The notes below the pieces were generated by a model. The model searched no databases. It saw only the letters and a program-made list of their open reading frames with translations, and had not been told where the DNA came from. The position numbers and the translations under genes were made by a program. From Naegleria gruberi (lineage: Eukaryota): DNA of 64,000 nt. The DNA lies in NCBI GenBank assembly GCA_000004985.1, contig GG738869.1; one strand, written 5' to 3'. Shown piece by piece: positions 1 to 64,000 of the stretch. Each line of letters opens with the position of its first letter. The stretch's first letter is position 1.

Positions 1-3000
1 TCGGTTGGAGTATTGTAAACATTATAAGTAACACCACTAGCAGCAGTTCTCCAGTGAACAGTTTGAACTTGAGCATCAATGTTTGGTACATTGTTATTTG
101 TAACTGTAACAAAAACAGTGGCAGTATTTGAGTTCAAAGCACCATCAGTAGCCTTATAAGTGAATTGATTAACACCAGTAGTAGGAGAAGAACCAAGGGT
201 ATATCTAATAAGATTATTATTCTTTTCAATGGTACCTTTGGCAGGTTGAGTGAAAGTATCAACTGAGAGGGTATCAGAATCAGCATCAACATCATTAGCC
301 AAAACATTAATGTCGATATTAGTAGATTTCCAGTGAACAGAGATGGTATCATTACTTGCAACAGGAGCATTATCCTTAATAGTTACATAAACAGTAGATG
401 TACCTTGCGAAATACCATCAGTAATAGTGTAGGTGAATGAATCAGAACCAACAAATCCTTTAGTTGGAGTATAGATAGCTTTGCCGTTAGATTTTAAGGT
501 TGAACCAGAGGTAGCTGAGGAAACAGATTGAAGACTGATAGAATCAGAATCAGCATCTGTGCATCCAGACAAAACATCAATAGTAATACCAGTTGACCAT
601 ACGGACCAGTGAGCTTCAATATTCTTAACTGTTGCTGTTGGAGCAGTATTCTTAACAGAGACAACAAATGTACCTGTCTTACTAACCCAACCATCAGTGA
701 ATTTAGCAGTGAAAGAGGAATCACCCAAAACTGGGCTATCTGGAAGAGTCCAATTAACCTTATCGGAAGAAATACTTGGAGTACCATAAGTAGTAGCACC
801 AGTAGTCAAACTGAATGTAATAGCATCATTATCAGCATCAGTTACTGCAGATAAAACATCAATCAAGGTAGATTTTTGAGTCCAATGAATATTGGTTGGG
901 AAGACTGTAACAACAGGATCGTTATTCAAAATGTTAATAGTCCAGTCAACTGATTTAGTCAACAAACCATCAGTGAAAGTAATAGTAACAATACTTGCAC
1001 CAGTATAACCTTGTTGACCAACAAAAGTAACCATATTACCAGAGAAAGTTGCAGAGCCACCAACATTAACAGAAACTGTCTTGACAGTTACAGTGTCTTC
1101 ATTGTCAGCGTCATTAGCACCACACATTACGACAGCATCACGAGTATAACCAGAAACAACTACGTCAAAGTGCTTGTTTTCAGTAACAGCATTAGCAGTT
1201 GGTGCTTGATCATAGACATTAAGATTGACTTGAACTTGAGAAGTACTAGCACCATCAGTAATGGTTACATTGAATGTATCAGCGCCCAAATAATTGTTTT
1301 GTTGAGTGTATTTGACATTTGGAATTGTAGAAGCATCACCGTTATTGATAGCAACTGAACCCTTAGAAGGAGTTGAAGTTGAAAGAATTGAGAGAGAATC
1401 TCCATCAGCATCGAGCGGTTGAGGAGTAGAGAACATATCAATAGTGGTACCACCAGTTTTTTGAGTAGACCAGTGAATATTCTTATTAATGACTTGATCT
1501 TGAGGAACATTATTATTGGTAACAATAAGTGTAACAGATGAAGAAGCACTCTTGGTAACATCATCGGTAGCAATATAGGTAATTTCTTGCGTACCAACAG
1601 ATGCAGCAACAGGAGAAAAGACAATAGCCTTTCTTTGAGCATCAATAGAAACTGATCCCTTGAAATCAGCAGCTTTGCTAACAGTATCAACAAAGAGAGC
1701 ATCATTGTTTGGATCCTTATCGTTTGCCAAAACATTCAATTGGTTATCACTTGACTTCCAGTGGAAAGTATAAGAGTCAGCAACTGGAAGAGGAGCATCA
1801 TTTCTAAGAGTGACAACAACATTGGCAACAGTTTCCTTTCCATAGTCAGAAACAGTGTATGTGAAAGTTGTTTCACCAGAATACTTTTCAGATGACTTGG
1901 ATGTGAAAACAAGAGCATCAGTACCATCAGCAAGTTGAGTACGAGTAACAACACCCTTTGATGGTTGAGTGAAGCTAGCAATATGAAGTGGGTCAGAATC
2001 AGCATCAACATCATTTGACAATACATTAATAGTAACTGAAGCATCATTCCAGTGAACAGAAGCAGTATCATCAACAGGAGCTGGAGCAGCATTAGTAACT
2101 TGCACAGTGACTGTTCCTTGATTTGATTCATCTAAGCCATCAGTAGTAGTGTAAGTAAATGTAGTGGTACCAGTGAAACCATTGTTTGGTTTAAAGAGAA
2201 CCTTTTTACCACCTTCAAAACTGGAAACTTGACCAGCAGTTGGTTGAGTCAATGTCTTGATAACCAAAGTATCATAATCACCTGGATTGATATCTTGGTC
2301 ATTATTCAAAACTTCAATAACAACACTTCTATTCCAAGATACAGACACAGCATCATTGTTAGCAATAGGAGCATCATTGACAACATTAACAGTGACAGTA
2401 GCATAATTAGAGAGAGCACCTTCATCATCAACAATAGAATAAGTAAAGGTGTCAACATATGTTTGGTTGAGAGCAGCATAGGTAACAAATCTGTTATTTG
2501 GTGAAATGTCAACAGTAATACCTTGAGTAGAAACAGTTGCAAGATCATATTGAATAGCATCACTATTTGGATCATAATCATTACTGATCAATTCAAATTT
2601 ACCAACTAAACCCTTAGAAACTTTAACAATATCGTCAACAGCAACAGGAGCGATATTTTTAACACCAACAATCAAATAACCAGTTACAGTGAAAATGCCT
2701 GTAGTTGATCCATCCTTGTTAGAATTTTTAACCTTGTATGGAGCAACATCGGTACCAGTGAAATCAGCTGGAGGAGTATAAGTCACATTCTTATCATCAA
2801 TCTTCTTGATCTTACCACCATTTTCAGTGGACAATTCATCAAAATCGAGCAAGAGATAATCATTGGAAGCACTATAATCATTAGCAACAACATCAACAGT
2901 GATTGGAACATTCTTATCGCACAAAACAGTATCATTAACAGCAACTGGAGCGACAGGAATAACATTAATAGTAACAGTACTTGTTACTGTATCAATATCA

Positions 3001-4285
3001 TCAGTAATTCTAAGCTTGAAAGATTCACTATAAATTACACCATCTTCAGGAGTGTAAACCATGGTATAACTATTCTTTTTAACATTGTAAAAATCTTGGG
3101 TTGGATAATTGACTTGAGTAATTGTGGATTGTTCCAAGAATTGGAAGGTACCACGAGTTGGCTTGGTCAACAAGGAAACGGTAACAGTATCTAACATATC
3201 AGCATCAGTGTATGTCAAATCCAATTGGTTATCCTTTGAATTCTTTGGAACATTGAGAATTCTATCAGCATTATTTGGTGGAGTATTGACAACTTTCAAG
3301 AAAACATAACTGCTTGAAGTAGTTGGACCATCAGTAATTGTATATTCAAAGGCATCAGTCAAAGCTTCAACCTTTGCAGGTGGAATGTAACTGAGATAGG
3401 TAGCATCTGAGGAAGTGATAACAGTACCAGCACTACCAGTACCAGATGTTGATGCAACAATAGTAATATTATCACCATTAATATCATAATCATTTTCCAT
3501 AACTCTGAGGATAGTCTTGGCATTCTTTGGAACAGTGTAAGTATCTGGATCAGCAACAGGTGGATCATTTTCAACATTAATAGTAATGAGAGCACTAACA
3601 ATAGCATTACCATCAGAAACGGTATAGTTGAATTGATCTTGAGCATTGAAACCATATTTTGGAGTGTAGTATACATATTTAGTGTCAAAAGTAACAACAG
3701 CTTCTGGAACTTGAGAAGCTGTAATACCAACAACAGTCAATTCGTCATTATCTGGATCAGTAATGAAAGCACCGTTATCAGTAACATAAGCAAAAATGTC
3801 AATACTGTTCTTTTTGCTATTCTTACTAACAGTGAGTGTAATATCAACCAATTCAGGTGGACGATTCAAAACTTCTACATGAACATTTGCTGAAGAAATC
3901 ATATAACCATTAGTTACATAATATTGGAAGGTTTCATTTCCAGCAAAAGAGCCTTTTGAAGTATAAACTAGTGTCTTACCATCCTTCAAAGAAACTGTAC
4001 CAGAAGTAGGTTGAGTAACGTTAACGAGAGTTAAATTCAATGATTTTGGATCAGCATCGTTAAGAAGTGGATATATTGTGATTGGGTAACGTTTGTAGAC
4101 TTGAATATAATCCTATTAGTTGTGGGTATTCAGAAAGTTGACATTTAGACATGCATGAATATAATGATGATAAACACAACAAATTCGAAATACTATGAAT
4201 TACTTACGTCTTTTGCGTCAGGAGCAGAGACTCCAGCAGAGACTGTAACCATGACAATAGTAACAACAACACTCGCAACAACCAT
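1..4285 (-). CDS. Giant secreted cadherin-like/VCBS-type tandem-repeat protein (partial; continues past window start). Exon 1 is 4208..4285 (start ATG at 4285), the intron is 4113..4207, and exon 2 is 4112..1 and beyond.
   Basis: Reverse-strand translation gives an open frame over more than 1,350 codons with no stop. It has about 95-100-aa tandem repeats, each carrying motifs such as VLANDVDADSD, NDAPVASNDTISVHW and NAAPAPVDDTASVHW. The N-terminus MVVASVVVTIVMVTVSAGVSAP is signal-peptide-like. The intron has a GTAAGT donor and a CTAAT..TAG 3' end. All ORF-track entries in 1..4100 are wrong-frame artefacts. Confidence 0.8.
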
Positions 4286-6408: not shown

Positions 6409-7783
6409 TTACAAAATCATGCATTTGCCACCAGTCTTCTTTGCTGATTTGTTATCTTGCTTGAATCTTTCAGGATGCAAAACAACAGTGATGGCCAAAT
6501 TGAAACATTCCTTCAAACCAACTTGTGTCTTGGCCGAACATTCACAGTAAGAAATACAGTTGACTTCCTTTGACATTTGTTCACCCATTTCCTTAGTTAT
6601 TGGTGTAAGACCTTGTTCTTTCAATTTCTTTAAAGTGGCATCGTGTTCTCTCATGTCAACCTTCAAACCACACAAAATAATTGGAACAGCTGGACAGTGC
6701 TTACGCAATTCTGGAATCCAACGATCCTTAATGTTAGTGAATGATGATGGTTGAACAACTGAGAAACAAGCAATGAAAATTTCTGTATCTGGATAAGACA
6801 ATGGTCTCAAACGACTATTTTCAATTGTTCATCATCATTAAAATTATTAAATCAAATGGATAGAGTTAATTCACAACATTTAATATTAATATAGTAGAGA
6901 GATGGTGTAGTGTGTTAATAGTGAAGAAGAGGTGTCAAACAAATTATTATTAGAATCAAGTATGAAACTATTCGAATATTATTATTCTAAAACTTACTCA
7001 TAACTGTAAAATGTTGAAGGTTGTTAATATAATGAATAGAAATATAATACATACTCTTCTTGACCAGCTGTATCCCACAAACCTAATGACACTGTATGAT
7101 TTTCATACATGACATTGGCACAATAGTTATCAAAAACAGTTGGAACATATTCTAAAGTGGTGTTATTAGAAAGTCGTCATATTTTAAAAGCATGGTAATT
7201 AAAAGGATATCAGAAATTGATAGTATCATAACAAGATGAAGTGTAGGACTATGCATAAACAAGAAATTGTTTGTTAGAAACTTACCAGTTGGGAAGGAAT
7301 CAGTACTGTAACTAATTAACATGGAAGTTTTACCGACAGCACCATCACCTATAGTGGAAAATAATTATTTGTTATTAGAATGGTTGTTGTTGTTGTTTTG
7401 ATGGTTAGTCATAAGGTTTAGTTGTTTAAAGTGGAAAGTGGTTGATGGTGGTTTGATGTTTAGTTTACATTAATCATGATTGTGTTTTAGAGGTGAAAGA
7501 ATATTCGTTATGAATGTGAAAGATTATCGCGAAAGTCATGGATAGGGTTGAAATTGTTGTTGTTGTGGTTAGAAAGTGTAGAAATTTAACCAGAAAGTGT
7601 ACGAAACAATATTCGAAAAGGATCAAGTAAGAGAAAGCATCAAGTAATAATGATGGAAAGAAGAAGAAAATTTGTTATCATAATCAGATGGTAGAATTAA
7701 AAAATTCGAAACAAAACGGAATAATTAGAAACTAGACTAAACTTTTACATACCAACAACTACACATTTAATATTAGTATCCAT
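6409..7783 (-). CDS. Rac/Rho-family small GTPase with 5 exons: 7783..7753, 7348..7286, 7141..7045, 7003..6998 (a 6-nt micro-exon) and 6814..6409
   Basis: The spliced protein is [80 protein letters not shown]...KTGGKCMIL, ending in a CAAX box. The P-loop (G1), DTAGQE (G3) and CGLKVD (G4) motifs are intact. Donors are GTATGT or GTAAGT and all exon phases are consistent. Confidence 0.85.
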
Positions 7784-8136
7784 TCTTTATATACAAAATC
7801 TATAGACAAAACTTTAATGATGGATTTGTTTCTATGTACGTACTCTCGAGAAAAAATCTAAGAGGGGTAGATTCGGTTTATTTTTTCTAGCTTGATTGCT
7901 GCCAAAAGTCAGAAGGTAACTGAGAACTAAAGGAATGATGTGTGATGGCCAGACGTGCGAACATTGAACTATAAAGTAATGGAAAAAAAGAAGGTATTCT
8001 ATTGAGGAAGGAACTGTGAAATGAAGAATATTACAAATTTCCATGAAGGCGTACAAATCCCTCATAAATGGGTGCGTCAACGAAAAACATCAGTCTGATT
8101 CCTCAATATCCATTAAGGTTCTCAAACTAATGTGCT

Positions 8137-8207
8137 CGTCTCGTGGTGTAATGGTAGCATAGTGGACTTTGAATCCATTGACGGAGGTTCGATTCCTCCC
8201 GAGACGG
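8137..8207 (+). tRNA. tRNA-Gln (anticodon UUG)
   Basis: The cloverleaf was folded by hand. The acceptor CGTCTCG pairs with CGAGACG. The D-arm is GTGT..GCAT. The anticodon stem GTGGA/TCCAT carries loop CTTTGAA. The T-arm is GGAGG-TTCGATT-CCTCC and the discriminator is G. A T-run follows downstream. Confidence 0.8.
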
Positions 8208-8451
8208 TAACGTGGCGAGCCATTGAATTTTATTTTGAATAAATTTGGAATATTGAAGAGAAACCTTATTTGAAACTTTTTTATTTGAAAACATTAGAAG
8301 AAGGAAGCAGTTTGTTTGTTAAAACAATAACAAATTTCGAGATTAAAAATCTTCAAATATATTATGAATAATCTCCAATTGCTTAAAAACATCTCTTTCT
8401 TAATATTTTGACCTGTCAACCATCAATGATTGGCAACTATAAGAAAAAAAA

Positions 8452-9554
8452 ATGTCATCTTCTGGTTATGATTTAATTGCCATTCCTTTGGAAACAATTA
8501 TTGTGAGTGGGGATTTTCCCAAAAGGCTTTCCCTGCAAAGTGATTCCTCTTATAGATTAATCAAAAAGTTCAAGATTTGAGAGAAAGATTCGAACAGTTT
8601 CTTTCAACTGATGAACTATTAGAATCTCTCCATTGCAATCAACAGAAATTGTTGTTTCTTGACTATTTCTACGATTGTAAAAGAAAGAAAGCCATCAAAT
8701 TTAAAGATTATTCCTCACTCTTTCAAGTTTGTAATTGTTTTCTGGGTGAAATTATTGCCAAGTCAAAGGAACAAATTTTGATTAATGACTTGACAGGTAG
8801 GAATTCATTTCTAGCTCAGTTTAATTCAATAGTGGATGAAAATCCTTCATTATTTCCGATATGTAAGAATGTGGAGGTTTATTCTTGGTTTTCAAAACAA
8901 TCAGAATTGAGTAGAAATAGAGAAGGTGATGTAATTCTAGAAGAATCGAATAATGGTATTGGAAATGAGGAAGATGATGTGTTGGAAATGCTAATTCTCA
9001 CATTTAATTATCATTTCAAAGCTTTATTCTATTTCTTTCAGAAGGTAGATTCAAAATTCATTCTAAATTGGACGAAAGAAAGTTTGAGTTCATTACCAAA
9101 GTTTATTCTAGACGAATTGAAAGTGAAACACGAAACTCGTCAATCCTTCAAAGAATTACTTGTCTACAAGGAGGAAGAACTCAATAACAGTACAATCCTG
9201 GATGCAGACTTTGAATTTCTGAATTTCCTCGCAATGAACACAAGTGATTGGAAAGCAAGAACCAAACTGTCAAATGCAAGTAATTGTCACATTTACTCGT
9301 CAAAGGAAAAATACATGGCAACTCCCAGAACAACCATTTACAAATTTGTCTATACAGTGGATAAGACTATTGAAGAATTTTCAAAAGCTTTCCTTTCGTA
9401 TGATTTCTCTGGAGAAAAGATGGTTATTAGTTCGTACTGGAGTTATGACCCAATGAATATTAATCATTCCTCAAAGAAATATTCAATTGTTAAGGGTGAA
9501 TTAGTTTTCAATCCAAACATTCCTCTAATTTCCAAACGAAGATCAGATGATTGA
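8452..9554 (+). CDS. Hypothetical protein with 2 exons (8452..8502 and 8556..9554)
   Basis: The ATG at 8452 encodes MSSSGYDLIAIPLETII. A GTGAGT donor sits at 8503 and a TATAG acceptor ends at 8555. The frame then continues into the 325-aa ORF, whose listed start is actually TTG. I recognise no domain. Confidence 0.5.
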
Positions 9555-9678
9555 TGTGGAGGAATTGATTTCGAATAAAGTTTGCTAAGAAAAAAAGATT
9601 GAAAGCTAAATTGAGATGTTGATTTGCTCTTGCAAATGCTGAATATCCAATGATCGAGGCTAAGAACAAAAAATCAGA

Positions 9679-9752
9679 TACCGACAATGGGGCTCGAACC
9701 CACGACCCCAGGATTAGAAGTCCTGTGCTCTATCCAACTGAGCTATGACGGC
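9679..9752 (-). tRNA. tRNA-Arg (anticodon UCU)
   Basis: The reverse strand reads GCCGTCA-TA-GCTC-AGTTGGATA-GAGC-A-CAGGA-CTTCTAA-TCCTG-GGGTC-GTGGG-TTCGAGC-CCCAT-TGTCGGT-A. There is one U-U mismatch in the acceptor stem. A T-run lies downstream on the minus strand. Confidence 0.75.
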
Positions 9753-9857
9753 TTACATTCAATATGAAAAATATTCCCTTTTTATAAAATTGTCTAGTAT
9801 GTACCTGGCAAGTTCCTCCTTGTGTTCACAAATGTCAAAAAAGTCAACAAACAAAAA

Positions 9858-10751
9858 ATGTCAAAACCTGTCCACACATTGATTGTTTCGTTGTTTCTTG
9901 TCATCATACTTTCATTTTTGACAGCATCATCCACTGCAAAATCTTATGCAATTACTTCACTTTCTTCAGAAGTTCACATTACAAATGGTGCTTGTACTTT
10001 GGACGTGGTCGAAACTTTCGAATACGAATTTACTGGTTCCTATTCAACTATTGGAAGAGCTTTCGCTTCTAATATTGATAACGTCAACAATATTGCAGTT
10101 GTTACACTCACATCTGGTTATAGTATTTCAACTTATTTTGATAGTACTGGTTATATTATCATGTATTTGAGTCCAGCAACTCCAGAATCAGGAACAACAA
10201 TGGTTTCGTTCCAACTGTCGTATACTGTAATAGGAAGACAAAATCTATTTGCCAGTTCTGCATCAGCTTCAAAGAATACTGTTTCGTTCTATTACAAGGA
10301 TAGTGCAATGATTAGAAATTTGACCTCTACTTTTATATTCGATTCGAATATTGGATTCACCAGTGCACCAACTTCAAGTGGTCAACTCATCACTAATGGA
10401 AATCAATATTCAGTCTTATTTTCAGTTCAAAATCTCACCAGTCTATACGTTCCAACAGTTTACTTTAATCCAAATTCAGACAATTTTAATTTGTGTCCAT
10501 TAACAGTTGGTGGAGTGGTAGGAATAGTTATTGGATCTGTGGCTGGAGCCATCATTCTTACACTAATATTTGCATTCATATTAATTAAGGGTAAATCAGG
10601 TGGAGGAGGAGGTGTTGGCAGTGGAACTTCCCACTGGACAGGAAATAATCATCATCATCATAACCATTCTCATACTGGTTATGGATATAGTGGTGGAGGA
10701 GGTGGAGGTGGTGATAGTGGTCACACTGGAGGTTCAGGATTTGCAAATTAA
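9858..10751 (+). CDS. Type I membrane protein with a signal peptide, an extracellular domain, one TM helix and a Gly/His-rich cytoplasmic tail
   Basis: The first in-frame ATG gives MSKPVHTLIVSLFLVIILSFLTASSTAKS. A TM segment VGGVVGIVIGSVAGAIILTLIFAFILI follows. The tail is GGGGGVGSG...NNHHHHNHSHTGYGYSGGGGGGGDSGHTGG. The listed 9822 start is a GTG. Confidence 0.6.
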   Translation: MSKPVHTLIVSLFLVIILSFLTASSTAKSYAITSLSSEVHITNGACTLDVVETFEYEFTGSYSTIGRAFASNIDNVNNIAVVTLTSGYSISTYFDSTGYIIMYLSPATPESGTTMVSFQLSYTVIGRQNLFASSASASKNTVSFYYKDSAMIRNLTSTFIFDSNIGFTSAPTSSGQLITNGNQYSVLFSVQNLTSLYVPTVYFNPNSDNFNLCPLTVGGVVGIVIGSVAGAIILTLIFAFILIKGKSGGGGGVGSGTSHWTGNNHHHHNHSHTGYGYSGGGGGGGDSGHTGGSGFAN

Positions 10752-10922
10752 CTTGTTATTGAAAATGCTCAATTCCAATAAATATTGGAATTCAATTCTT
10801 ATGGACTTTGTTCGAATGTTAAGCCAAACTTTTTTTCCATCAATTACCTTACCAACATATTCAACTAAACTTCTCTCGAACTTTCAATATTTGTGGAGTT
10901 TGTTAGGAGTTGTTTAAAAAAA

Positions 10923-12641
10923 ATGTCTTCAAGAGTTTGCACAGCTTTTGGTCGACTTATTTCCACGCCATCATCACCATCATCACTATCATCACGATCA
11001 TCAAGAAGGAAAATTAATTCATCCTTCTTCATGTTATTATTAAATTATTTCCTTCTCATAATTTCTCTCGTTTTCTTCATCACATCAACCTCCAATTTAA
11101 TACTTGCCAAATCATCATCATCAATAATTACATCATCATCATCGGTGCAATTTAGTAGTAGTAGAATTAAAAATCATGATGTGAAGGATCCACCAAATTT
11201 TAATATTTGTCAATCAGAGGTTTCGAATCAGGTCAAGGATATGCTTTCTAATTTTCCAGCAACTTTTGGTATTCAAGTAATGGTTAATCAAACCATTGAG
11301 TTGTTTTCTTATAATCCAGATCCATTTCTTCAACCTGCTTCTAATAACAAATTATTGACAACTATTGCTGCATTGAATCATTTGGGAAGTAAATTTCGTT
11401 TCTCCACTGATTTCTTCTATGATTATAAGAATAGAAGAGTTGTTGTGAGACCAAAGGGAGATCCAACATTAACATTTGAGCAATTGCAAAAATCATTAAT
11501 GAATGTTTTGGAAAAGGTCACTTCAATGAATCCTCATGAAATTGTTGTGGATGCTAGTTTTTTCAATCCAATTCCATTTACAAATGGTGGAGATGATGAG
11601 GAATTTCCAGATTCATGGGAATGGGGAAATTTACAATATTCATTTAGTTCAGTACCAAGTGCCTTATCTTTGGAACATAATACTTTAACATTTACTGTTA
11701 AAGGTGGAGAGGTTGCTGGTCAAGGATTGAGTATTGTTTTGGATGAACCATTTCAATCATTTGCAAAGGATTTCTTTGAATTTGATACTAGTTTGAGTAG
11801 AACTTTGGATTGTTCAAATGCTAATATTATCAGTAAGGAAAGTGTCACCTCTTATTATAAACCTTTAGATAATAAGATTATTGTTAGAGGTCAATTGTGT
11901 GCAAAGAAGGAATCCAAGCAAACATTGACTGTTTTGGATACTTATGGATTTTTCTTACAAGCAGTTTCAAGTGCTAGCGCCTCTTCAAATGGTCCAAAAT
12001 CTGTTAAAATTGATTATTTGAGTGAGGAGGAACGTTCCTCCATGTTTGAATTCAAAGAGGAATGCGTCTACTCTGATAATATTCTCACAGTTATGAATAC
12101 TACACTTCAAGAGAGTGATAACATGTATGCAGAATTATTCTTGAGACAATTGGGAACTTTCATTAAGGCAAATAGTAGTTTGGACGTTTTTCCATCCATC
12201 ACCACAAGAGGAATTCAAGTTGTTAAGGATATTTTGACAAGTCAATTCAACTTGTCACCATTCACATTCTTCCAAAATGATGGATCTGGACTTTCTCGTC
12301 ACAATCTCATTTCTCCTCGTTCTCTAGTCGATGCATTGAGTGCAATCTATTACAAGGGAGCAGGTGGAGTCAGTGGTGAAACATTTGTCTCCTTATTACC
12401 TCTCGGAGGAAGGAGTGGAACTCTCAGGAATAGATTTGTTGATTTCCCAGGTATTGTGAGTGCTAAAACTGGAAGCTTGGATGGAGTTAGTTCTTTGAGT
12501 GGATATATTAGAAATGCCAATTATAGAGATCCAATTGTTTTTTCAATTATTGTTAATCAGTGTCCACTCTCTGCCAAGGAAATGCATCAAATTATTGATT
12601 CCATTGTTACCTTGTTTGCATTCATGAATCCAAAATGCTAA
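10923..12641 (+). CDS. Bacterial-type D-Ala-D-Ala carboxypeptidase/endopeptidase (peptidase S13, PBP4/DacB family) with an N-terminal Ser-rich segment and a TM anchor
   Basis: The SxxK motif is PASNNKLLTTIAALNHLGSKFRFST. The SxN motif is DGSGLSRHNLISP. The KTG box is GTLRNRF...SAKTGSLDGVSSLSGY...IVFSIIVNQ. The first ATG is at 10923 and is followed by the TM segment FFMLLLNYFLLIISLVFFIT. Confidence 0.85.
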   Translation: MSSRVCTAFGRLISTPSSPSSLSSRSSRRKINSSFFMLLLNYFLLIISLVFFITSTSNLILAKSSSSIITSSSSVQFSSSRIKNHDVKDPPNFNICQSEVSNQVKDMLSNFPATFGIQVMVNQTIELFSYNPDPFLQPASNNKLLTTIAALNHLGSKFRFSTDFFYDYKNRRVVVRPKGDPTLTFEQLQKSLMNVLEKVTSMNPHEIVVDASFFNPIPFTNGGDDEEFPDSWEWGNLQYSFSSVPSALSLEHNTLTFTVKGGEVAGQGLSIVLDEPFQSFAKDFFEFDTSLSRTLDCSNANIISKESVTSYYKPLDNKIIVRGQLCAKKESKQTLTVLDTYGFFLQAVSSASASSNGPKSVKIDYLSEEERSSMFEFKEECVYSDNILTVMNTTLQESDNMYAELFLRQLGTFIKANSSLDVFPSITTRGIQVVKDILTSQFNLSPFTFFQNDGSGLSRHNLISPRSLVDALSAIYYKGAGGVSGETFVSLLPLGGRSGTLRNRFVDFPGIVSAKTGSLDGVSSLSGYIRNANYRDPIVFSIIVNQCPLSAKEMHQIIDSIVTLFAFMNPKC

Positions 12642-44605: not shown

Positions 44606-45858
44606 TGTTGTTGATGTATGTGTTGTTTATTTTGTTTTAATAAATAATTTGACGTTGATGGGGCGACGTATGGCATTTTCGTATTGACGGGTCAACTCGT
44701 CAGCCATAAGCCGTTACAATCTGCAGAGAACTTGGAAATTTAAGAGGTCCGAGTTCTGATGTTTGGTTGATTTAGTACAAATTCAATTAGTTTCTTGTGA
44801 TAATTTGTGGAGTGCTCTATTAGAATCTTTTAGATTCGAATAAATATTTGAAGGAAATGGCTTCGAAGGAGGTATGAGTCATTGTATTATTGAGACTGAG
44901 ATGGGTTATTATTGAAATGATGTTTGAGATTTTCAAGTAAACAGTTCTTTTATGAAACTTGGAACTTTTACAATACTTGTTGTAATTGTAGTTTAGAATA
45001 AAGTTTCCCTTCATTGAAAAGTTCAATTCCATTTCCTTTATTATTAAACACATAACAATGTCATTACTAGCAAAAATGATTCTTTGTTAACAATTTTCAA
45101 ACTTTTCAATTAAACAACCAAATATTCATACGAAAGTCCTACTTTAATTTGAAAAGCATCAGCTTTTAAGATAGATTTTTATGATAGATTGAATAATCTG
45201 GCAATTAATGTAATTTGACCTTATTCAAAAATATAATCAAATTTCATTGTTGATGAAACAGAGAGTACAATGTACTGTAATTAGGTCAAAATTCCTAGAT
45301 CCAATCAGTCTGCACAAACACCTATTTTATTTTTCCCGCCCATTTTTCATCATAATTCACGCCTTTGAAATCAACTGGATAACAAATCAGGGCAGTAAAT
45401 TCATCTTCTTACTATTCCACAATTGATATTTTGTAAAATAATTGTAATAAATGGTATTTACATTTTACAATAGGTTTTTTGAGTTTCTCCTAAAAAGTCA
45501 ATCTATTGCGTTTTTTAAATTAGGAGTGATAAAGACAACTTTTTCAATTTCGGCCTTTAGTTTCCTCGTTAATTTGATCAAAGAAGGATTTCTCTCGTCT
45601 TGTTTCAAACACGAAAAAATTCGAACAGTGCTATTCGAAAGGTTGTTAACAAACCATAAGAAAAAATTGATATCTCATCATTTGTTTGAAATTAAAGTTT
45701 CTATCAGATATTCGAATACATTCGAATAACAATAATTGATCTGAATTTCTAGAACTGTCCCAAATAGTTGGGTGGTAAAGCCCTTAAATCAAGAAATTTT
45801 TCTATCTGCTGCAAAGTTTAGCATAAATTCCCAGCCATCAACATCAAACATCAAAAAA

Positions 45859-48800
45859 ATGTCATCGCCAAGTGCCGACTGTTCAGAAGGAGTAAACAAT
45901 CTTTTGATGAGTAGCAGCACAACAACAATAACGGAGGAGCAACAACCAACAAATTCCATTGAACCAAATGATGCTCCAACAAATGCTGATGAGAAAGTAG
46001 AAGAATCTTCTTCATCATCCAAAACTATTACAACAGATAGTAGTAATACAACAATAACAATAACAACAACTCAACTTCATGAGACAATAACATTGACTCA
46101 ATCAACTTTATCTCAACAAGCAGTAGAAGAACAACAAACAGCAAATAATCAACTTGTTGCCAACAATACTTCCACTACAACAACAACAACTACAGAAGAA
46201 GAAAATGGCGCCATTTTACAACCAAGAGGTTCTGTTGTTGTTCTGATGAATGCGCCATCACACCACGACAGAATCAATAGCAGCACGAGTGAAGATGATG
46301 ACAATGGTGATGATAATATTGTATTTGAATCACGTACGGCTACTACGACTCCAGAGCACATTGATACAACAACAAACCCATTTGTAACAGGTGTTGTTTT
46401 TAATAATATTATTGAGAATAGTGATGAGACAATTAATAATAATAATAATAACAATGATGATGATAATAATAATAATAATACAACAACAAATGAATATCAT
46501 GTTGATGTTGATGATGATGATACAAATAATAATAACAATGAACAAATAACAGAGGAACAAGATCAATCATATCAAGATGTTGTTATGACTCCAACATATA
46601 ATGTTCAACAACAACAACAACAAACATTTACAACCTATGATCGTAATGACTTGTTGTTAAATGTTGATGATTCACAACTTCCTTTGTGGATGAGATTGGA
46701 AGAACGATTAAATGTACACCCAGAGGCAAAACCTGTTCATTATCCACTTCCACCTTCTGTTAGAGTTGCCAGTAGTCATCCAGAATTACAACAATCCAAG
46801 TATCCACACTTGCAAGAGTATCATCGTCAATTTTATGAGCCATTTACTGTTCTTGAGAGAGAAGATCCATACTCTTTCAAATCTGTACAATTCAAACCAC
46901 TTGAAAACCATCCAACCTCTCATATCTCTCACAATTCAGCATCCTTGAACAATTCATCCTCTGCCAATTTACTTACACTCACATTGACAAATCCAAATAT
47001 ACAATCTAGCGGTAATGGAAAGAGTATTGTTGATTCTTTCTTTAAAGCTTTATATCATCTTGATTCTATGGCTTCAAACAGTCAACTAGGAAAAGATCAA
47101 GTTCATGTAATTCAAAATGGAAATGGTAGTGCTAGTGCATCTCTCAATGACTTGTCAAACGATTCATCACATGATGAAACATCAGAAGTTGGTTCATCAC
47201 TCTCTCCACTCAAGGGATCACTTAAAAATTTGAAGGAACAAGAAGGTCTCGATGGAAAGAGAAAAGGAAGCATTTTCGCTTTGAAATTTAAACATCAAGC
47301 ACAAGCTTCTTCTTCTGATAATTCTAAAATTATGAGTACTTCAACTCAAAATCCAAAAATGCTTTTGGATGGTTATGATTCTCTTGAAGTCAACACATCA
47401 GATTTGGAATCTCACAATGATCAATCGTCTGATGTAAATAGAAATGAATCACAAACACCTGTTAGTACTACTTCAGGCGCTCCTGGAGGCAGTGATCCTA
47501 ACCAAGTACAAGAAGAAGATACTGAAGAACAATATCTTAAAAAGTTGAGTTTGGTTGAATTTTCCAAACATTGTAGTGCCAAGAGACGTGTAAAACAATT
47601 TGATTTCCTTTCTGGAGATTCCACTTTTGATAAACCTCCTCTCATTAGTAAGAAAATTCCATCCAATATGAGCCTTGCTTCTCCAACTGGTGAAGAGAAA
47701 CCTCCAGTTGTTTCTGAAGATGGTAAATTGAACATTTCTGATACTGAAATACTTCCAGAATCAACCACTCGTCTTATGAGTTGTCTCAAACCAAACTTTA
47801 AATATAGACCTATAGAAACATCAATGTGTTTCCGTCAACCACAAAATCAAGCTAGCTTGGCATATCCTATCAAGAAGAGAACACAACTAGTTATTTCATG
47901 TCATACACCACCAAAATTCGAAAGACCTGTTTCTGAAATTCACTACTTCTCAATGGCTCTTTATGATTTGGAGAGGGGTTCTAAAATTAGTGAAGATTTC
48001 CACTTCCATTTCCTTTTGAAGGAACAAATTGAAACTCTTTCTCCTTGGGTTCAAAATTATTTAAAGACTATGGCATCAGCACTTCCAGTTAAACCAGTTC
48101 AACAACCACTCATGTCTCCTCGTTCAGGTGAAAATGGTCAACCTCAAGTTCAACACGAAGAACAAAAGGCATTATTCACTATTACTTATCCAAATGATCA
48201 AATATATTTGGTTATTCAAGTATATCGTTTACCAACTGGAAGTATGAAGGATGCTCTTAAACTCTACAAGAGGGACACCAAACAATCAGAAATTAATGAT
48301 GTTGAAAAACAATACAATGAACTCAAACAACAAGTTGCTCACTTTAGACAAGCCATTCTCTTTGGATATACTCCATTATTCAGCAAGAGAGGTAATGTTT
48401 ATCAATTGACCTCTACAAAGTATGAGCTCAAACCAATGTATTCTATTGAAGGATTTGATTTCAAGACTCCTTTCGATGCCATGACCATGATTAGGACTAT
48501 TCAAAAGGAAAAGAAATTGAAGAATATTACACAAATTGATGGTGGATTTTTATTGAGAGCAGAAATTTTGAAAAATCACTCGAATGCCAACAAACAACCT
48601 AAACATAATAGACATCGTTCTATCGAGCACAATCTTCATCCAATTATTGGATCATCAGGTAATAGTGCATCTTTAGTGACTAGTCCACAAAGTTATGAAA
48701 ATCAACTTACTGATGAAAGTGGTAATTTATTAGTTTCAAATGGAGTTTCATCATCACTTTCAAGCTCTTCACCATCTCCACTCTCTCCATCCAACTCACT

Positions 48801-51800
48801 TCTTAAGGAACGTTTAATGAATGATTTGGGAAGATCGGATTCAATGCCTAGTAGTCCTCTTAAGGGTATGATTGATCATGAAAAGACTGCCCACGATGAT
48901 GAAAATAGCCTTGAAACTGACTTGATTAGAGTTCAAGAACTTCCAATTCAACTCTCCAAATATCCAAACATGGAGGTTCTCAATCACTTCTTCTTTAATC
49001 CAATTGTTGCCCAATTCGAAAAGACATTTGGTGGAAAGAATATTTTCTGTGAGGTATTGTATCGTGAGTCTGATTCTGAAGTTGTGAATGAAACAACTGG
49101 TCAAGTTAATGCAGAGCCAAGAATCATGACTAGGTTCAGTAGAAATTCATCTAAATATGATTTCTCATGTGTTTCGTATGATGAAGAGAAGCAGCCACAC
49201 TTTTACGATGAGTTCAAGATTGATATTCCTTGTGAACCAAGGAGGGATCAACACGTTTTGGTTGTTTTCTATCACTTGGATGTAGATAATAAGAAGTCTA
49301 AAAAGTTGAACTATGTGAGTGGTGCTAATGACATTAGAAAGGAAGATTTTGGAACTTCTCACAGAGCTGTTCTTGGGTATGCTTTCATGGAATTGAACGA
49401 TAGCAAGAAGTTTGATAGCGAAGGCTACTCAATGTTCCCTCAATTCCGTAAACATACCTTCCCTGATGAAATTACTATTTACAAAGAACTTCCAGCCAAT
49501 TATTTGAAGGACTCTGAAGAAAAATTGAAGAATCTCAAGATTGGTAAATTGAAAGTTAGATCCCATTTGGTTACAACCATTGATCCATCTGATGAAATTA
49601 TTACCCTCTTCTTCTCCACAATGTATGATTTACAAAATGTTCCAGATTATCAAAAACCACAAGTCTTAACCTTCTTATGTGACTATGTCTTCCCTCAATT
49701 CAACAAGATTGATTTCAAGGTATTCATGCCACATTTACCAGTTGTTTTGAATATGCTGTTTGGTTTAATGGCAAGAGTTTCTGCCATGCTTCAAGCAAGT
49801 GCTGTTTCTTACATTATTGAAAAGGTTGAAATTGCAACATTTGAACAAATTTTGGTTTGCTTGCGTGGTTGTTATCACTTCCTCAGTGAGACCAATCCAG
49901 AGAATGAATCACACTCTAGGCTCAATGTTTTCTTCTCCAGTTACACCAAATATATTCTTACTGAACCAAAAGGAGCTAAATATCCATTGTTTAGTATCTT
50001 GTTGAGATTGATGGCTGAATATTTGGAAGTTCCAGAAACTGAAAAGATGGCTCCTGCCAAGGGTTCAGACTATCTCAATGATTTGAGTCAAATGGTAAAG
50101 AAATCTCGTCAAAAGAAGGAAAATATGGACAATGTCAAGCAACAAATTGACCAGAGAAGAAATCAACTTTCAGAACACGATCCAATTCGTTTCTCCTGGT
50201 TCATTTTTGATGTTATTATCAAATCAATGACTATTTTCTTCAATGAAAAGGCAAAGAAGGAAGACAGTGCTTCACAAAGAAGAAGACGTATTTCTGCTCA
50301 TGATGAACACGAGTTGGACTATCCAATTTCTGATAGACACATTTTAAACAGATTGAGACAGCTCACTGATAACATGGTTGTTCGTATCTACAAGTTATTA
50401 CTTGCCAGTGGTATTGGTCGTCAAAATATTGGTATTGGTGGTAACAGAAATTTGGCTCTCTTCTTACGTGATCTCATTCCATTCATTCCAGACAAACAAC
50501 TCTACATTGAACACTTGATTGATCGTTACTTCCAAAGTTTGGATGGTATTGATGAACGTAAATTGAGACTTAAAGCAGAATTTATTGCCATCTTGACTGA
50601 TTACGATTATTACATTCCATTCAATTTGCACTTGTTACGTCTCTTTTCTAAGGGAGAAGGAGATTCTGTCGAATCCACAGCTACAACCACAGAGGAAAAT
50701 GCTGAATACTTGATGAGCCAAGAAGTCAACTCAAAGCAAGTTACCTTCTCTTCAATTTTGATTGAATTATTCTACGATGTTGTAAAGAGTGGTAATGACA
50801 AGTTGCTTATCAAAATTTCAAAGATTTTATTGGATCACTTCTGTAAATTAGACTATGATAGCAGATACCAAGAAGACTCTAGAAGAGCTATTGTTACTGG
50901 ATTGTACATTGAATTTGTTGATAGATTCCTCGAAAATGATGAAAATCTTACTCGTTTCAAGAATGACGAGATTTATGTAGTTCTCTCTTCATGTATCATG
51001 TGGATTTTGAGAGGTTTATCAAAGGACAAGTTGTTACGTTGGTGGAAGTCTCGTCCATTCTACGTAATGCTCAATTTGATTACCTTCTTGGAACATACCA
51101 CTGTTGCCTTTAACAATTTGGACTTTTCAGGAAAGATGACTGACGACAGTATTCTTCGTACTGAAATTGCTTGTATTACAAGTTATTTGATATCAACACT
51201 CCTTTCTAATAGAAGTTTATTCGATGAAATTTTACCAGAATTGAAAACCCAAGATGAAAACATTCAAATGTTGGAGAATATCCAAATTACCGATATTGTC
51301 TTGCAACGTCAACAGCAAATTGCTGACTTGTTCGAAGCAAAGAGCGTCAGGACTCAACCACACACAGTTGCCTTATTCTTTAGACGTATTTCACACTTGT
51401 TGTTAAACTTTATTCTTCAACTTACTTTAAGGTCTGATTCTGCACATTGCCACTTGATCTTTAGACAATGTGTATTGCCTCTTGTGAGAGATATGACTGA
51501 TCAATTGGTTGTTTCTGAATTGTACGATGACTCCATTCCAAAGAGAGAAAGAGTTCCTCCAGTTCAAAAGAAGCATGTCGAACAAAAATGGCGTTGGTTG
51601 CTTGGTTCTGTTATTCTTCACTGGAGCTTTAATCCAAAACTTGAGAACCAAATCCACGACCTTGTTCGTGCATCCCTTGAATTGCTCTTGAGACCTATGG
51701 AAAAGATCTTGAAAGAAAAGCAAACAAATGCAACAGGTCAAGCTGATGAAGATGGAGATGTCATTCTCGATGAAGATGGTACTATTCGTGCTGCCACATT

Positions 51801-60073: not shown

Positions 60074-61441
<1,368 letters not shown>

Positions 61442-63797: not shown

Positions 63798-63816
63798 ATT
63801 TAAATTATTATTATTA

Positions 63817-64000
63817 TTAATTCATATTCATCTCCGAAGAATTAATTTGCTCATTCATTGGTGGTTGTTGGAATTGTTCTGGATACAGAAAACTTTCAAA
63901 TTCATCATCGTCATTAACTCCACTCCAACCAATATTATTACTATCATAACCCGATGAATGGATCATTCGAAACTCTATTTTGGCGCCTTTTTTTTGATAT
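63817..64000 (-). CDS. 3' end of an unidentified gene running in from beyond the window end
   Basis: The reverse-strand frame is open to the window edge and ends ...PPMNEQINSSEMNMN followed by TAA (63817..63819). Confidence 0.25.
   Translation of the reverse strand, partial: YQKKGAKIEFRMIHSSGYDSNNIGWSGVNDDDEFESFLYPEQFQQPPMNEQINSSEMNMN

What the first reader, a model, noticed from the sequence alone, without database searches (positions are those of the whole stretch)
10923..12641. Bacterial PBP4/DacB (peptidase S13) D-Ala-D-Ala carboxypeptidase domesticated in a eukaryotic gene
The SxxK, SxN and KTG motifs and flanking residues are classic peptidase S13. The ORF carries a eukaryote-style Ser-rich N-terminal segment plus a TM anchor. 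It sits between a eukaryotic membrane-protein gene and a fatty-acid hydroxylase gene, near tRNA genes, so it is integrated and not contamination. S13 enzymes act on peptidoglycan. In a eukaryote this suggests bacterial cell-wall remodelling or killing, and probable horizontal gene transfer. Comparable S13 acquisitions have been reported in social amoebae, as far as I recall.
Basis: partly seen in the sequence, partly recalled or inferred. Interest (0 to 1): 0.7.

Follow-up and report, generated by a model that had tools for sequence, protein, structure and literature searches.

The report
Bacterial-type cell-wall peptidase in Naegleria
The amoeba Naegleria gruberi carries an intact, host-adapted and conserved gene for a bacterial-type enzyme (PBP4, peptidase S13) that cuts peptidoglycan peptide links, most likely to digest the bacteria it eats; an active enzyme of this family was already described in Dictyostelium, so this old gene transfer is real but not unprecedented.

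Summary
Window 10923-12641(+) is one uninterrupted 572-codon ORF. It matches Peptidase_S13 (E 1.4e-57) and TIGR00666 PBP4 above their cut-offs. The SxxK, SxN and KTG motifs are intact, and the AlphaFold model superposes on full-length PBP4 structures. The window is Naegleria gruberi nuclear DNA: a public protein matches at 100%, and tubulin, SNAP, RasGEF and Ras genes lie around the ORF. Contamination is excluded. N. fowleri and N. lovaniensis have single-exon orthologs on 0.7-0.8 Mb scaffolds beside the same Ras gene. Codon usage is host-like, and dN/dS is 0.12. The transfer is old, not Naegleria-specific. The nearest relatives are other eukaryotic sequences (Percolomonas, Ceratiomyxa, Nematostelium, and an environmental relative with a spliceosomal intron). 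The closest named bacteria are cyanobacteria, at about 30% identity, and they share a terminal cysteine pair. The Ser-rich N-terminus is not conserved; what orthologs share is a signal-peptide-like hydrophobic segment. Most likely function: a secreted or phagolysosomal DD-endo/carboxypeptidase acting on prey peptidoglycan. This is inferred, not shown. Dictyostelium pscA is a published precedent with measured activity, so this is a new member of a known kind, of moderate interest.

The parts
10923..12641 (+). Complete intronless ORF (572 aa plus TAA) for a class-C1 penicillin-binding protein / peptidase S13 of Naegleria gruberi
10923..11030 (+). Ser/Arg-rich N-terminal 36 codons (13 Ser), not conserved in orthologs. 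They form either a cytoplasmic tail of a signal anchor or 5' leader sequence if translation starts at ATG 11031. ATG 10923 follows an A7 run.
11031..11108 (+). Hydrophobic segment M37-A62 (MLLLNYFLLIISLVFFITSTSNLILA). It is a signal peptide or signal anchor and aligns with the N-terminal signal peptides of the N. fowleri and N. lovaniensis orthologs.
11109..11207 (+). Ser-rich low-complexity linker (11 Ser in 33 residues) between the hydrophobic segment and the conserved domain
11208..11210 (+). Cys96. This N-terminal cysteine is conserved in the eukaryotic clade and in cyanobacterial PBP4s, and is the presumed disulfide partner of Cys572.
11262..12614 (+). Peptidase_S13 (PF02113) match, residues 114-564. 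The public NCBI model (453 aa) starts only at M120 and is N-terminally truncated.
11340..11351 (+). SxxK motif S140-N-N-K143 (catalytic serine and general-base lysine)
11352..12113 (+). Stretch between the SxxK and SxN motifs (258 residues from Ser140 to Ser398) that holds domains II and III of class-C1 PBPs. It includes W232-E-W-G-N236...F241, which aligns with E. coli PBP4 D155/F160 of the meso-Dap pocket.
12096..12104 (+). N392-T-T N-glycosylation sequon, three residues before the SxN motif (N392-T-T-L-Q-E-S398). It is present in 16/22 eukaryote-clade sequences and 0/15 cyanobacterial ones.
12114..12122 (+). SxN motif S398-D-N400
12279..12305 (+). D453-G-S-G-L-S-R-H-N461. R459 aligns with E. 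coli PBP4 R361 (meso-Dap pocket).
12465..12473 (+). KTG motif K515-T-G517
12636..12638 (+). Cys572, the last residue (...FMNPKC). A C-terminal cysteine is shared by the eukaryotic clade and cyanobacterial PBP4s only.
6412..6828 (-). Context: an exon of a Ras-family GTPase gene. It is 87-89% identical to the gene lying divergently upstream of the S13 ortholog in N. fowleri and N. lovaniensis, and is the only conserved neighbour.

Best explanation
Window 10923-12641 is a functional nuclear gene of Naegleria gruberi. It encodes a complete class-C1 penicillin-binding protein (PBP4 type, MEROPS S13) of bacterial ancestry. The gene was acquired long before the Naegleria species diverged and is now part of a small eukaryotic clade found in heterolobosean and amoebozoan amoebae. 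Its closest named bacterial relatives are cyanobacterial PBP4s.

Proposed mechanism. Shown: an N-terminal hydrophobic signal sequence precedes an intact catalytic domain. Inferred: this sequence sends the protein into the ER and secretory pathway, so the domain ends up in the lumen of phagolysosomes or outside the cell. Ser140 then attacks the D-Ala-D-Ala or D-Ala-(meso)Dap peptide bond of peptidoglycan stem peptides, an acyl-enzyme forms and is hydrolysed, and terminal D-Ala is trimmed and cross-links are cut (DD-carboxypeptidase and DD-endopeptidase activity). This would loosen the sacculus of ingested bacteria and help lysozyme-type enzymes digest prey or kill bacteria that resist digestion.
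For: Identity: Pfam and TIGRFAM scores are above their cut-offs. The AF2 model has pLDDT 92.7 and pTM 0.92. Foldseek matches it to full-length E. coli PBP4, R39 and B. subtilis PBP4a at E about 1e-33 and TM 0.74-0.83 over about 500 columns. All three catalytic motifs are intact. Counterparts of the E. coli meso-Dap pocket D155/F160/R361 are N236/F241/R459 (alignment; residues named in PMC3276566).

Eukaryotic and functional status: there is a 100% match to an N. gruberi protein on a 747 kb scaffold. Eukaryotic genes lie all around. GC is 0.343, GC3 is 0.251, and RSCU correlates at r=0.93 with the other ORFs in the window. Single-exon orthologs exist in N. fowleri and N. lovaniensis beside the same Ras gene. 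dN/dS is 0.117 at dS 0.67. An environmental relative at 51% identity lies next to a DHHC gene and carries a 38-nt GT..AG intron.

Targeting: hydrophobic N-termini are present in all three species, and in N. lovaniensis the segment is preceded by a stop codon. A conserved N-x-T sequon is specific to the eukaryotic clade.

Clade: Naegleria scores 398-424 bits against a profile of the Percolomonas-side sequences and 333-335 bits against an Amoebozoa-like profile. It scores 244 bits against cyanobacteria and 162-242 bits against other bacteria. In the unbiased search of 1.84e9 representatives, every looked-up single-domain hit scoring above about 313 bits (what the same profile gives the best cyanobacterial-type hit, P0006) was eukaryotic or unnamed; none carried a bacterial organism name.

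Precedent: Dictyostelium pscA is an active penicillin-sensitive S13 peptidase in a bacterivore. Bdellovibrio uses secreted PBP4 homologs to de-crosslink prey walls.
Against: There is no expression, localisation or activity data for the Naegleria protein. The function of Dictyostelium pscA is itself stated to be unknown. The start codon is unresolved between ATG 10923 and ATG 11031, so whether the protein is membrane-anchored or soluble is open. The protein keeps the 'housekeeping' architecture with domain III. In Bdellovibrio, loss of domain III was argued to be the predatory adaptation. Asp155 of the Dap pocket is Asn in Naegleria. The phylogeny is only neighbour-joining with modest support: 32% for all eukaryotes together and 41% for the union with cyanobacteria. 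A generic profile of mixed bacteria scores about the same as the cyanobacterial one, so the donor assignment rests mainly on the shared Cys pair and on ranked hits.
Confidence: 0.7

Rival explanations
1. The ORF is bacterial contamination or a chimeric assembly, not a Naegleria gene.
For: The protein family is otherwise overwhelmingly bacterial: 20119 hits, mostly PBP4-annotated. The gene has no intron.
Against: Composition and codon usage are host-like (r=0.93, GC3 0.25). Tubulin, SNAP, RasGEF, Ras and tRNA genes lie on the same 64 kb. Orthologs in two independently assembled Naegleria genomes sit on 0.7-0.8 Mb scaffolds beside the same Ras gene. The best bacterial identity is only about 30-33%.
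Confidence: 0.01
2. It is a recent, Naegleria-specific direct transfer from a bacterium, the simplest reading of 'probable HGT'.
For: The gene is intronless in all three Naegleria species. The immediate downstream neighbours differ between N. gruberi and N. fowleri/N. lovaniensis.
Against: Identity between Naegleria species is 60-63% with dS above 1.7, which means long residence. Codon usage is fully adapted to the host. The closest sequences are other eukaryotes, including Percolomonas (Heterolobosea), with a shared ...DPxC C-terminus and a shared N-x-T sequon. No bacterium exceeds about 34% identity.
Confidence: 0.07
3. The enzyme is real and secreted, but its role is not prey digestion. Candidate roles are defence against intracellular or resistant bacteria (Legionella- or chlamydia-like), generation or destruction of muropeptide signals, sequestration of beta-lactams, or processing of an endogenous D-amino-acid-containing or cyst-wall component.
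For: The function of Dictyostelium pscA is unknown despite measured activity. Keeping domain III and a near-complete Dap pocket suggests a restricted 'housekeeping-like' substrate range rather than a broad lytic enzyme. Strong purifying selection fits any of these roles.
Against: No endogenous D-Ala-D-Ala substrate is known in Naegleria (my own knowledge; not tested here). PBPs turn over beta-lactams poorly (established enzymology). The known carriers are all bacterivorous amoebae, which is most simply explained by feeding.
Confidence: 0.2
4. Alternative origin: the eukaryotic clade does not come from a direct cyanobacterium-to-amoeba transfer. It descends from a plastid-derived (endosymbiotic) or algal copy that spread between eukaryotes, or from one very old acquisition followed by many losses.
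For: The cysteine pair is shared only with cyanobacterial PBP4s. All eukaryotic and eukaryote-like sequences group together and score better against each other than against bacteria. A sister group of GC-rich sequences includes a TARA contig whose neighbouring genes look eukaryotic to me: signal peptides and Ala/Glu/Gly low-complexity regions (judged by eye only).
Against: No named alga or plant was recovered among the hits I could label. Bootstrap support is 32-67% on a distance tree. The taxonomy of most environmental sequences is unknown. Independent transfers from related donors into several amoebae would give a similar picture.
Confidence: 0.25
5. The gene is a decaying or catalytically dead relic.
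For: The public N. gruberi model is truncated and named only 'predicted protein'.
Against: The ORF is full length in three species. All catalytic motifs are intact. dN/dS is 0.12. The fold prediction is confident.
Confidence: 0.03

Closest known systems
Dictyostelium discoideum pscA (DDB_G0271902), penicillin-sensitive carboxypeptidase, a Peptidase S13 HGT candidate
   Same: Both are nuclear genes of a bacterivorous amoeba encoding an S13 / class-C1 PBP of bacterial ancestry. pscA is conserved within its lineage, with a D. purpureum ortholog. It is reported as enzymatically active and penicillin-sensitive (PMC3188802; PMC4604126).
   Different: The host supergroup differs (Amoebozoa versus Discoba/Heterolobosea). 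I could not obtain the pscA sequence, so orthology or common origin is untested. Named amoebozoan sequences (Ceratiomyxa, Nematostelium) fall in a sister subclade with weak support. No activity data exist for Naegleria.
Housekeeping class-C1 PBPs: E. coli PBP4/DacB (2ex2), B. subtilis PBP4a (1w5d), Actinomadura R39 DD-peptidase (1w79)
   Same: The three-domain fold is the same (TM 0.74-0.83 over the full length). SxxK, SxN and KTG are present. R361 and F160 of the meso-Dap pocket are conserved. Expected chemistry: DD-carboxypeptidase and DD-endopeptidase via a serine acyl-enzyme.
   Different: Sequence identity is only 21-24%. The protein fails the enterobacterial DacB equivalog model (135.9 versus 527 bits). 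It has a eukaryotic signal sequence, a Ser-rich linker, an N-x-T sequon next to SxN, and a terminal Cys pair. The host has no peptidoglycan of its own, so the substrate must be foreign.
Cyanobacterial PBP4 (Nostoc, Anabaena, Microcoleus, Halomicronema, Fischerella, Thermosynechococcus)
   Same: These are the best named bacterial matches, at 440-460 bits to the eukaryote-clade profile and 30-34% identity. They share the N-terminal Cys and the C-terminal Cys, which other bacterial groups lack. They are sister to the eukaryote-containing clade in the NJ tree.
   Different: They lack the ...DPxC ending and the N-x-T sequon, and have S-N-N more often than S-D-N. Support for the sister relationship is weak (41%). 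A mixed bacterial profile scores about as well as the cyanobacterial one.
Bdellovibrio bacteriovorus predatory DD-endopeptidases Bd3459/Bd0816 (3v39, 5cer)
   Same: They are PBP4-family enzymes secreted by a predator to cut cross-links in prey peptidoglycan. This shows the family can be used offensively (PMC3276566). They appear as structural matches at E about 1e-11.
   Different: The Bdellovibrio enzymes lost domain III and the Dap pocket and match only at TM 0.48-0.60. The Naegleria protein keeps the full housekeeping architecture. The resemblance is in the proposed use, not in family membership.

Membership tests
Peptidase S13 / class-C1 penicillin-binding proteins (PBP4 type) | Sequence match to the family models above curated thresholds | tested here: met
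   PF02113 scores 195.9 bits against 22.8. TIGR00666 scores 166.2 against 107.8.
Peptidase S13 / class-C1 penicillin-binding proteins (PBP4 type) | Catalytic motifs SxxK, SxN and KTG, in that order | tested here: met
   S140NNK143, S398DN400 and K515TG517. All three are intact in every Naegleria ortholog, and the catalytic residues are invariant or at least 90% conserved across the 51- and 18-sequence alignments.
Peptidase S13 / class-C1 penicillin-binding proteins (PBP4 type) | Three-domain architecture, with domains II and III inserted between SxxK and SxN (definition in PMC4604126) | tested here: met
   There are 258 residues from Ser140 to Ser398. The AF2 model (pLDDT 92.7) superposes on full-length 2ex2, 1w79 and 1w5d at TM 0.74-0.83 over 485-504 alignment columns.
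Peptidase S13 / class-C1 penicillin-binding proteins (PBP4 type) | Pocket for the free meso-Dap/stem-peptide terminus (E. coli D155, F160, R361; PMC3276566) | tested here: inconclusive
   These residues align to N236, F241 and R459 (alignment). Two are identical and one is Asp to Asn. This rests on a pairwise alignment only; no docking or structural check was done.
Peptidase S13 / class-C1 penicillin-binding proteins (PBP4 type) | Penicillin binding and DD-carboxy/endopeptidase activity | not testable with these tools
   Needs recombinant protein. The only eukaryotic measurement is for Dictyostelium pscA (cited in PMC3188802).
Enterobacterial DacB equivalog (NF008322 / PRK11113) | Score at or above the curated equivalog cut-off | tested here: not met
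   135.9 bits against a cut-off of 527. It is a member of the PBP4 family but not an ortholog of E. coli DacB.
Eukaryotic, horizontally acquired C1-PBPs (Dictyostelium pscA type) | Encoded in a eukaryotic nuclear genome, with host-like composition and vertical inheritance within the lineage | tested here: met
Eukaryotic, horizontally acquired C1-PBPs (Dictyostelium pscA type) | Common origin with pscA (same clade) | not tested
   The pscA sequence could not be obtained. Amoebozoan sequences from Ceratiomyxa and Nematostelium group with the Naegleria clade at only 32% bootstrap, though profile scores favour eukaryotes over bacteria by about 90 bits.
Bdellovibrio-type predatory PBP4 endopeptidases | Loss of domain III and of the Dap pocket, giving an exposed active site (PMC3276566) | tested here: not met
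   Full-length architecture is retained. TM is 0.48-0.60 to 3v39/5cer against 0.74-0.83 to housekeeping PBP4s. R459 and F241 are retained.

The most novel reading that the evidence does not exclude
The Naegleria gene would be one branch of a single, ancient, cyanobacterial-type PBP4 family. That family was taken up once, directly or through a plastid-bearing alga, and then kept or passed on among phagotrophic eukaryotes of at least two supergroups (Heterolobosea in Discoba; Dictyostelia, Ceratiomyxa and protosteloid amoebae in Amoebozoa; possibly GC-rich marine protists). It acquired eukaryote-specific features: an ER signal peptide, a glycosylation sequon beside the SxN motif, a ...DPxC end, and introns in some lineages. 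It would then be a conserved, so far unstudied component of the phagolysosomal machinery that dismantles peptidoglycan cross-links.
Probability: 0.3. Interest if true: 0.6.

Novelty: new member of a known kind. Interest (0 to 1): 0.35.

Why it matters
Eukaryotes make no peptidoglycan. A conserved, selected peptidoglycan DD-peptidase in a free-living amoeba, including the pathogen N. fowleri, therefore points to enzymatic tools for eating or resisting bacteria that were borrowed from bacteria themselves. The case adds a second supergroup to the Dictyostelium example. The data also hint that such enzymes form one amoeba-centred eukaryotic clade rather than scattered one-off transfers. That is testable, and it would bear on how bacterivory evolved. 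In practice, the public N. gruberi gene model is truncated and unnamed and should be corrected. The enzyme would be a penicillin-sensitive target or marker in Naegleria, although nothing suggests it is essential in axenic growth.

Tried and rejected
(1) The genome-contig scan with the eukaryote profile returned only six Acidobacteria loci at 25-35% identity. The degenerate-pattern step is too narrow to identify a donor. (2) A second word-index search with alignment A1 returned no proteins that one search had not already found. (3) Microsynteny downstream is not conserved. The FA-hydroxylase gene of N. gruberi is unrelated to the gene downstream in N. fowleri and N. lovaniensis. Only the upstream Ras gene is shared. 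(4) The ~960-aa top hits looked like candidate fused eukaryotic proteins, but they are Firmicutes (Brevibacillus, Scopulibacillus) with tandem S13 modules. Their high scores are sums over two domains. (5) A viral vector is unsupported: there is no relative in IMG/VR, and only weak partial S11-type matches in BFVD. (7) The Dictyostelium (Eichinger 2005) and Naegleria (Fritz-Laylin 2010) genome papers are not held. I therefore cannot say whether this gene is in the published list of Naegleria HGT candidates. Full-text searches for Naegleria with D-Ala-D-Ala carboxypeptidase or penicillin-binding protein found nothing relevant. (8) The cyanobacterial-genes-in-protists paper (PMC3087521) does not mention this gene. 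It remains an inference from co-conservation.
Full report
**1. What is at the coordinates.** The region holds one open reading frame, 10893..12641 on the + strand. Its first ATG is at 10923, giving 572 codons, and it ends in TAA at 12639-12641. No other ORF of 80 aa or more lies under the S13 domain on either strand; only the 3' end of a 105-aa + strand ORF (10600-10917) overlaps the GTG-initiated leader upstream of ATG 10923. The protein matches Pfam Peptidase_S13 (PF02113) at E 1.4e-57, 195.9 bits against a gathering score of 22.8. The match runs nearly end to end: residues 114-564, profile positions 18-440 of 444. It also passes NCBIfam TIGR00666 'PBP4' at 166.2 bits against 107.8. It fails the equivalog model for enterobacterial DacB, NF008322, at 135.9 bits against 527. 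By sequence alone it finds the solved PBP4 structures of E. coli (2ex2, E 2.9e-22) and H. influenzae, B. subtilis PBP4a and the Actinomadura R39 DD-peptidase. The three catalytic motifs are S140-N-N-K143, S398-D-N400 and K515-T-G517. The Ser and Lys of SxxK and the Ser and Asn of SxN are invariant in the 51-sequence alignment, where K-T-G is at least 90% conserved; K-T-G is invariant in the 18-sequence alignment.

**2. Fold.** An AlphaFold2 model of residues 90-572, built on a 51-sequence alignment, is confident: mean pLDDT 92.7 and pTM 0.92. Foldseek against the PDB puts full-length class-C1 PBPs on top. These are E. coli PBP4 (E 8e-34, TM 0.74/0.78), R39 (TM 0.78/0.81) and B. subtilis PBP4a (TM 0.79/0.83), over 485-504 alignment columns. 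Class-C1 PBPs are defined by a penicillin-binding domain with two extra domains inserted between SxxK and SxN (PMC4604126). Here 258 residues separate Ser140 from Ser398. The Bdellovibrio predatory endopeptidases Bd3459 and Bd0816 appear much lower (E about 1e-11, TM 0.48-0.60). Those enzymes have lost domain III and the meso-Dap pocket D155/F160/R361 (PMC3276566). In the phmmer alignment to E. coli PBP4 these three positions correspond to N236, F241 and R459 of the Naegleria protein (numbering worked out from that alignment). The amoeba enzyme thus keeps the 'housekeeping' architecture and most of the Dap pocket.

**3. Whose DNA it is.** The best database match is a 'predicted protein' of Naegleria gruberi, 100% identical, on a 747 kb scaffold. 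The 64 kb window carries typical eukaryotic genes. These include tubulin, SNAP, a RasGEF/DOCK-C2 protein, ankyrin/TPR/zf-MYND proteins, a Ras GTPase, Zn2Cys6 proteins, a fatty-acid hydroxylase and three tRNA genes. GC content is even, at 0.29-0.39. The S13 ORF has GC 0.343 and GC3 0.251. Its relative synonymous codon usage correlates at r=0.93 with the pooled other long ORFs, one of the highest values in the window. N. fowleri and N. lovaniensis have orthologs at 60-63% identity, as single exons on 814 kb and 716 kb scaffolds. In all three species a Ras-family gene lies upstream on the opposite strand, and it is 87-89% identical between species. In N. gruberi, two tRNA genes and two ORFs have come to lie between the Ras gene and the S13 gene. 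The downstream neighbours are not conserved. Between N. fowleri and N. lovaniensis, dN/dS is 0.117 at dS 0.67. Contamination, chimerism and pseudogene status are therefore excluded.

**4. The N-terminus.** If ATG 10923 is used (it follows an A7 run), the protein begins with 36 Ser/Arg-rich residues. A 26-residue hydrophobic segment follows, then a Ser-rich linker. The Ser-rich head is not conserved. N. lovaniensis starts directly with MALHHLRVFICTIATLLLLLSVSIIASA, and a stop codon lies just upstream. The annotated N. fowleri protein likewise starts at the hydrophobic segment, although short in-frame extensions are possible. In N. gruberi, M37 (ATG 11031) would give the same kind of signal peptide. 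The shared feature is entry into the ER and secretory pathway with the catalytic domain on the luminal or extracellular side. Whether N. gruberi makes an anchored or a soluble form cannot be decided from sequence. Conservation with orthologs and other relatives starts at about residue 93, including Cys96. The public 453-aa model starts at M120 and is therefore truncated.

**5. Relatives and origin.**
- *Unbiased search.* I ran a profile search of 1.84 billion cluster representatives. After the Naegleria proteins, the best single-domain hits that I could label are eukaryotic or carry eukaryote-style features.
  - An environmental sequence at 51% identity lies next to a DHHC gene. It is interrupted by a 38-nt GT..AG intron just before the KTG codons.
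  - Named hits are Percolomonas cosmopolitus (Heterolobosea), Ceratiomyxa fruticulosa and Nematostelium gracile (Amoebozoa), plus unnamed EukProt transcripts.
  - The ~960-aa hits that scored highly are Firmicutes with two S13 modules, so their scores are sums over two domains.
- *Named bacteria.* A profile of the eukaryotic group, searched against 5.8 billion proteins, finds cyanobacteria as the best named bacteria: Halomicronema, Anabaena, Nostoc, Nodularia, Microcoleus and Fischerella, at 440-460 bits and 30-34% identity.
- *Shared characters.* A discrete character agrees with this. An N-terminal Cys (C96) and a Cys at or near the C-terminus (C572, the last residue) occur together in the eukaryotic group and in cyanobacterial PBP4s. 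The pair is absent from the other bacterial groups sampled, apart from one unnamed sequence (P0029) that has the N-terminal Cys alone. Within the eukaryotic group, a Naegleria/Percolomonas-side set ends in ...DPxC (...NPxC in Naegleria). An N-x-T sequon three residues before the SxN motif is present in 16/22 eukaryote-clade sequences and 0/15 cyanobacterial ones.
- *Rough tree.* I built a neighbour-joining tree of 54 sequences and 451 columns with 200 bootstraps.

| Grouping | Bootstrap |
|---|---|
| Naegleria + the environmental relative | 100% |
| The DPxC set including Percolomonas | 54% |
| All eukaryotic and eukaryote-like sequences | 32% |
| These plus four GC-rich unknown sequences | 67% |
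| Union with cyanobacteria | 41% |

- *Group profiles.* Naegleria scores 398-424 bits against the Percolomonas-side profile (Naegleria excluded) and 333-335 bits against the Amoebozoa-like profile. It scores 244 bits against cyanobacteria, 220-242 bits against a mixed bacterial set and 162-168 bits against Firmicutes.
- *Reading.* The gene's ancestry is bacterial. The transfer long predates the Naegleria radiation. Naegleria belongs to an amoeba-centred eukaryotic clade. A cyanobacterial-type donor is the best guess, at only moderate confidence. One acquisition or several, and direct transfer or transfer through an alga, remain open questions.
- *Viruses.* No viral relatives were found.

**6. 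How it most likely works.**
- *Shown.* The catalytic apparatus of a serine DD-peptidase is complete. The fold is that of PBP4. There is a secretory signal, the gene is under strong purifying selection, and the host lacks peptidoglycan.
- *Inferred.* The enzyme is delivered to phagolysosomes or secreted. There Ser140 is acylated by the D-Ala-D-Ala or D-Ala-Dap bond of stem peptides and the acyl-enzyme is hydrolysed. This trims pentapeptides and, as argued for PBP4s in vivo, opens cross-links, so the sacculus of ingested bacteria becomes accessible to glycosidases. The retained R459/F241 pocket suggests Dap-type peptidoglycan, found in Gram-negatives, cyanobacteria and bacilli.
[quoted passage not shown] PMC4604126 explicitly links a functional C1-PBP to a phagocyte of bacteria. 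Bdellovibrio secretes PBP4 homologs against prey walls.
- *Alternatives.* Defence against intracellular bacteria, muropeptide signalling, beta-lactam binding or an endogenous substrate cannot be excluded.

**7. Comparison and novelty.** The protein is a member of peptidase S13 / class-C1 PBPs. All sequence and fold criteria tested are met, and activity is untestable here. It is not an E. coli DacB ortholog and not a Bdellovibrio-type predatory variant. As a eukaryotic, horizontally derived C1-PBP it is a new member of a kind already known from Dictyostelium. I found no paper that discusses the Naegleria gene. However, the two genome papers most likely to list it are not in the library, and databases already label the N. 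fowleri and N. lovaniensis orthologs as D-Ala-D-Ala carboxypeptidases. The modestly new elements are three:
- membership in a eukaryotic clade spanning Heterolobosea and Amoebozoa, with eukaryote-specific signatures;
- the cyanobacterial-type cysteine pair;
- the truncated public gene model.

**8. Verdict.** Interest is 0.35. The case is solid and clean but not surprising to a specialist. The single-origin amoeba-wide family reading (probability about 0.3) would raise it to about 0.6.

Noticed in passing
window 3-4112 (-), ORF runs off the window start: An ORF of at least 1370 aa is made of bacterial-type repeats: Big_9 (bacterial Ig) x11 at E 4e-134, Cadherin_4 x7 and Cadherin_5 x8. Its composition is host-like (GC 0.363, GC3 0.212). 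It may be a second bacterial-derived, adhesin-like gene in the same window.
   Followed up: no
window 10923-12641 versus public protein P0001: The public N. gruberi gene model (453 aa, 'predicted protein') starts at M120. It omits the signal sequence and the conserved N-terminal part, including Cys96. Orthologs and other relatives align from about residue 93.
   Followed up: yes
L004 about 3140-3180 (environmental relative P0004, JGI 3300002220): A 38-nt GTAAGT...TGTAG intron interrupts the S13 gene just before the KTG codons. The prokaryotic gene caller therefore produced a corrupted C-terminus. The exons rejoin as ...PGVVW|AKTGTLDGV... and the protein ends ...FMNPNC, like Naegleria. A DHHC palmitoyltransferase gene lies next door.
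   Followed up: yes
window 8136-10751, compared with L001/L002 about 7400-8000: In N. gruberi, tRNA-Gln (8136-8208), an ORF (8577-9554), tRNA-Arg (9679-9752, -) and a Gly/His-tailed membrane-protein ORF (9822-10751) lie between the conserved Ras gene and the S13 gene. In N. fowleri and N. lovaniensis that gap is only about 0.6 kb.
   Followed up: partly
proteins P0073, P0074, P0077, P0079, P0088, P0089, P0091 (Brevibacillus, Scopulibacillus and relatives): These Firmicutes proteins of about 960 aa carry two tandem S13 modules. In Scopulibacillus the second module has lost the SxN serine (ENDN) and the KTG motif (GITE), so it looks like a pseudo-enzyme domain.
   Followed up: partly
window 57773-59878 (+), 60077-61441 (-), 61713-63821 (-): Two paralogous ORFs (the first with a Pfam fungal-type Zn2Cys6 Zn_clus match) flank a tubulin gene, which has the highest GC in the window (0.426). 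Similar Zn_clus genes, at 31-34% identity, lie about 4 kb downstream of the S13 ortholog in N. fowleri and N. lovaniensis.
   Followed up: no
L012 (TARA scaffold carrying P0027), whole 8.9 kb: A GC-rich (0.636) marine contig carries an S13 gene that groups next to the eukaryotic clade. Its neighbours include a TIR_2 protein and low-complexity Ala/Glu/Gly-rich secreted proteins that look eukaryotic to the eye. If the source is an alga, this would bear on the origin of the eukaryotic S13 clade.
   Followed up: partly
window 45745-53061 (+): A single 2439-aa ORF combines a DOCK-type C2 domain with RasGEF_N and RasGEF domains. This is an unusual pairing of modules from two different GEF families in one protein.
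   Followed up: no
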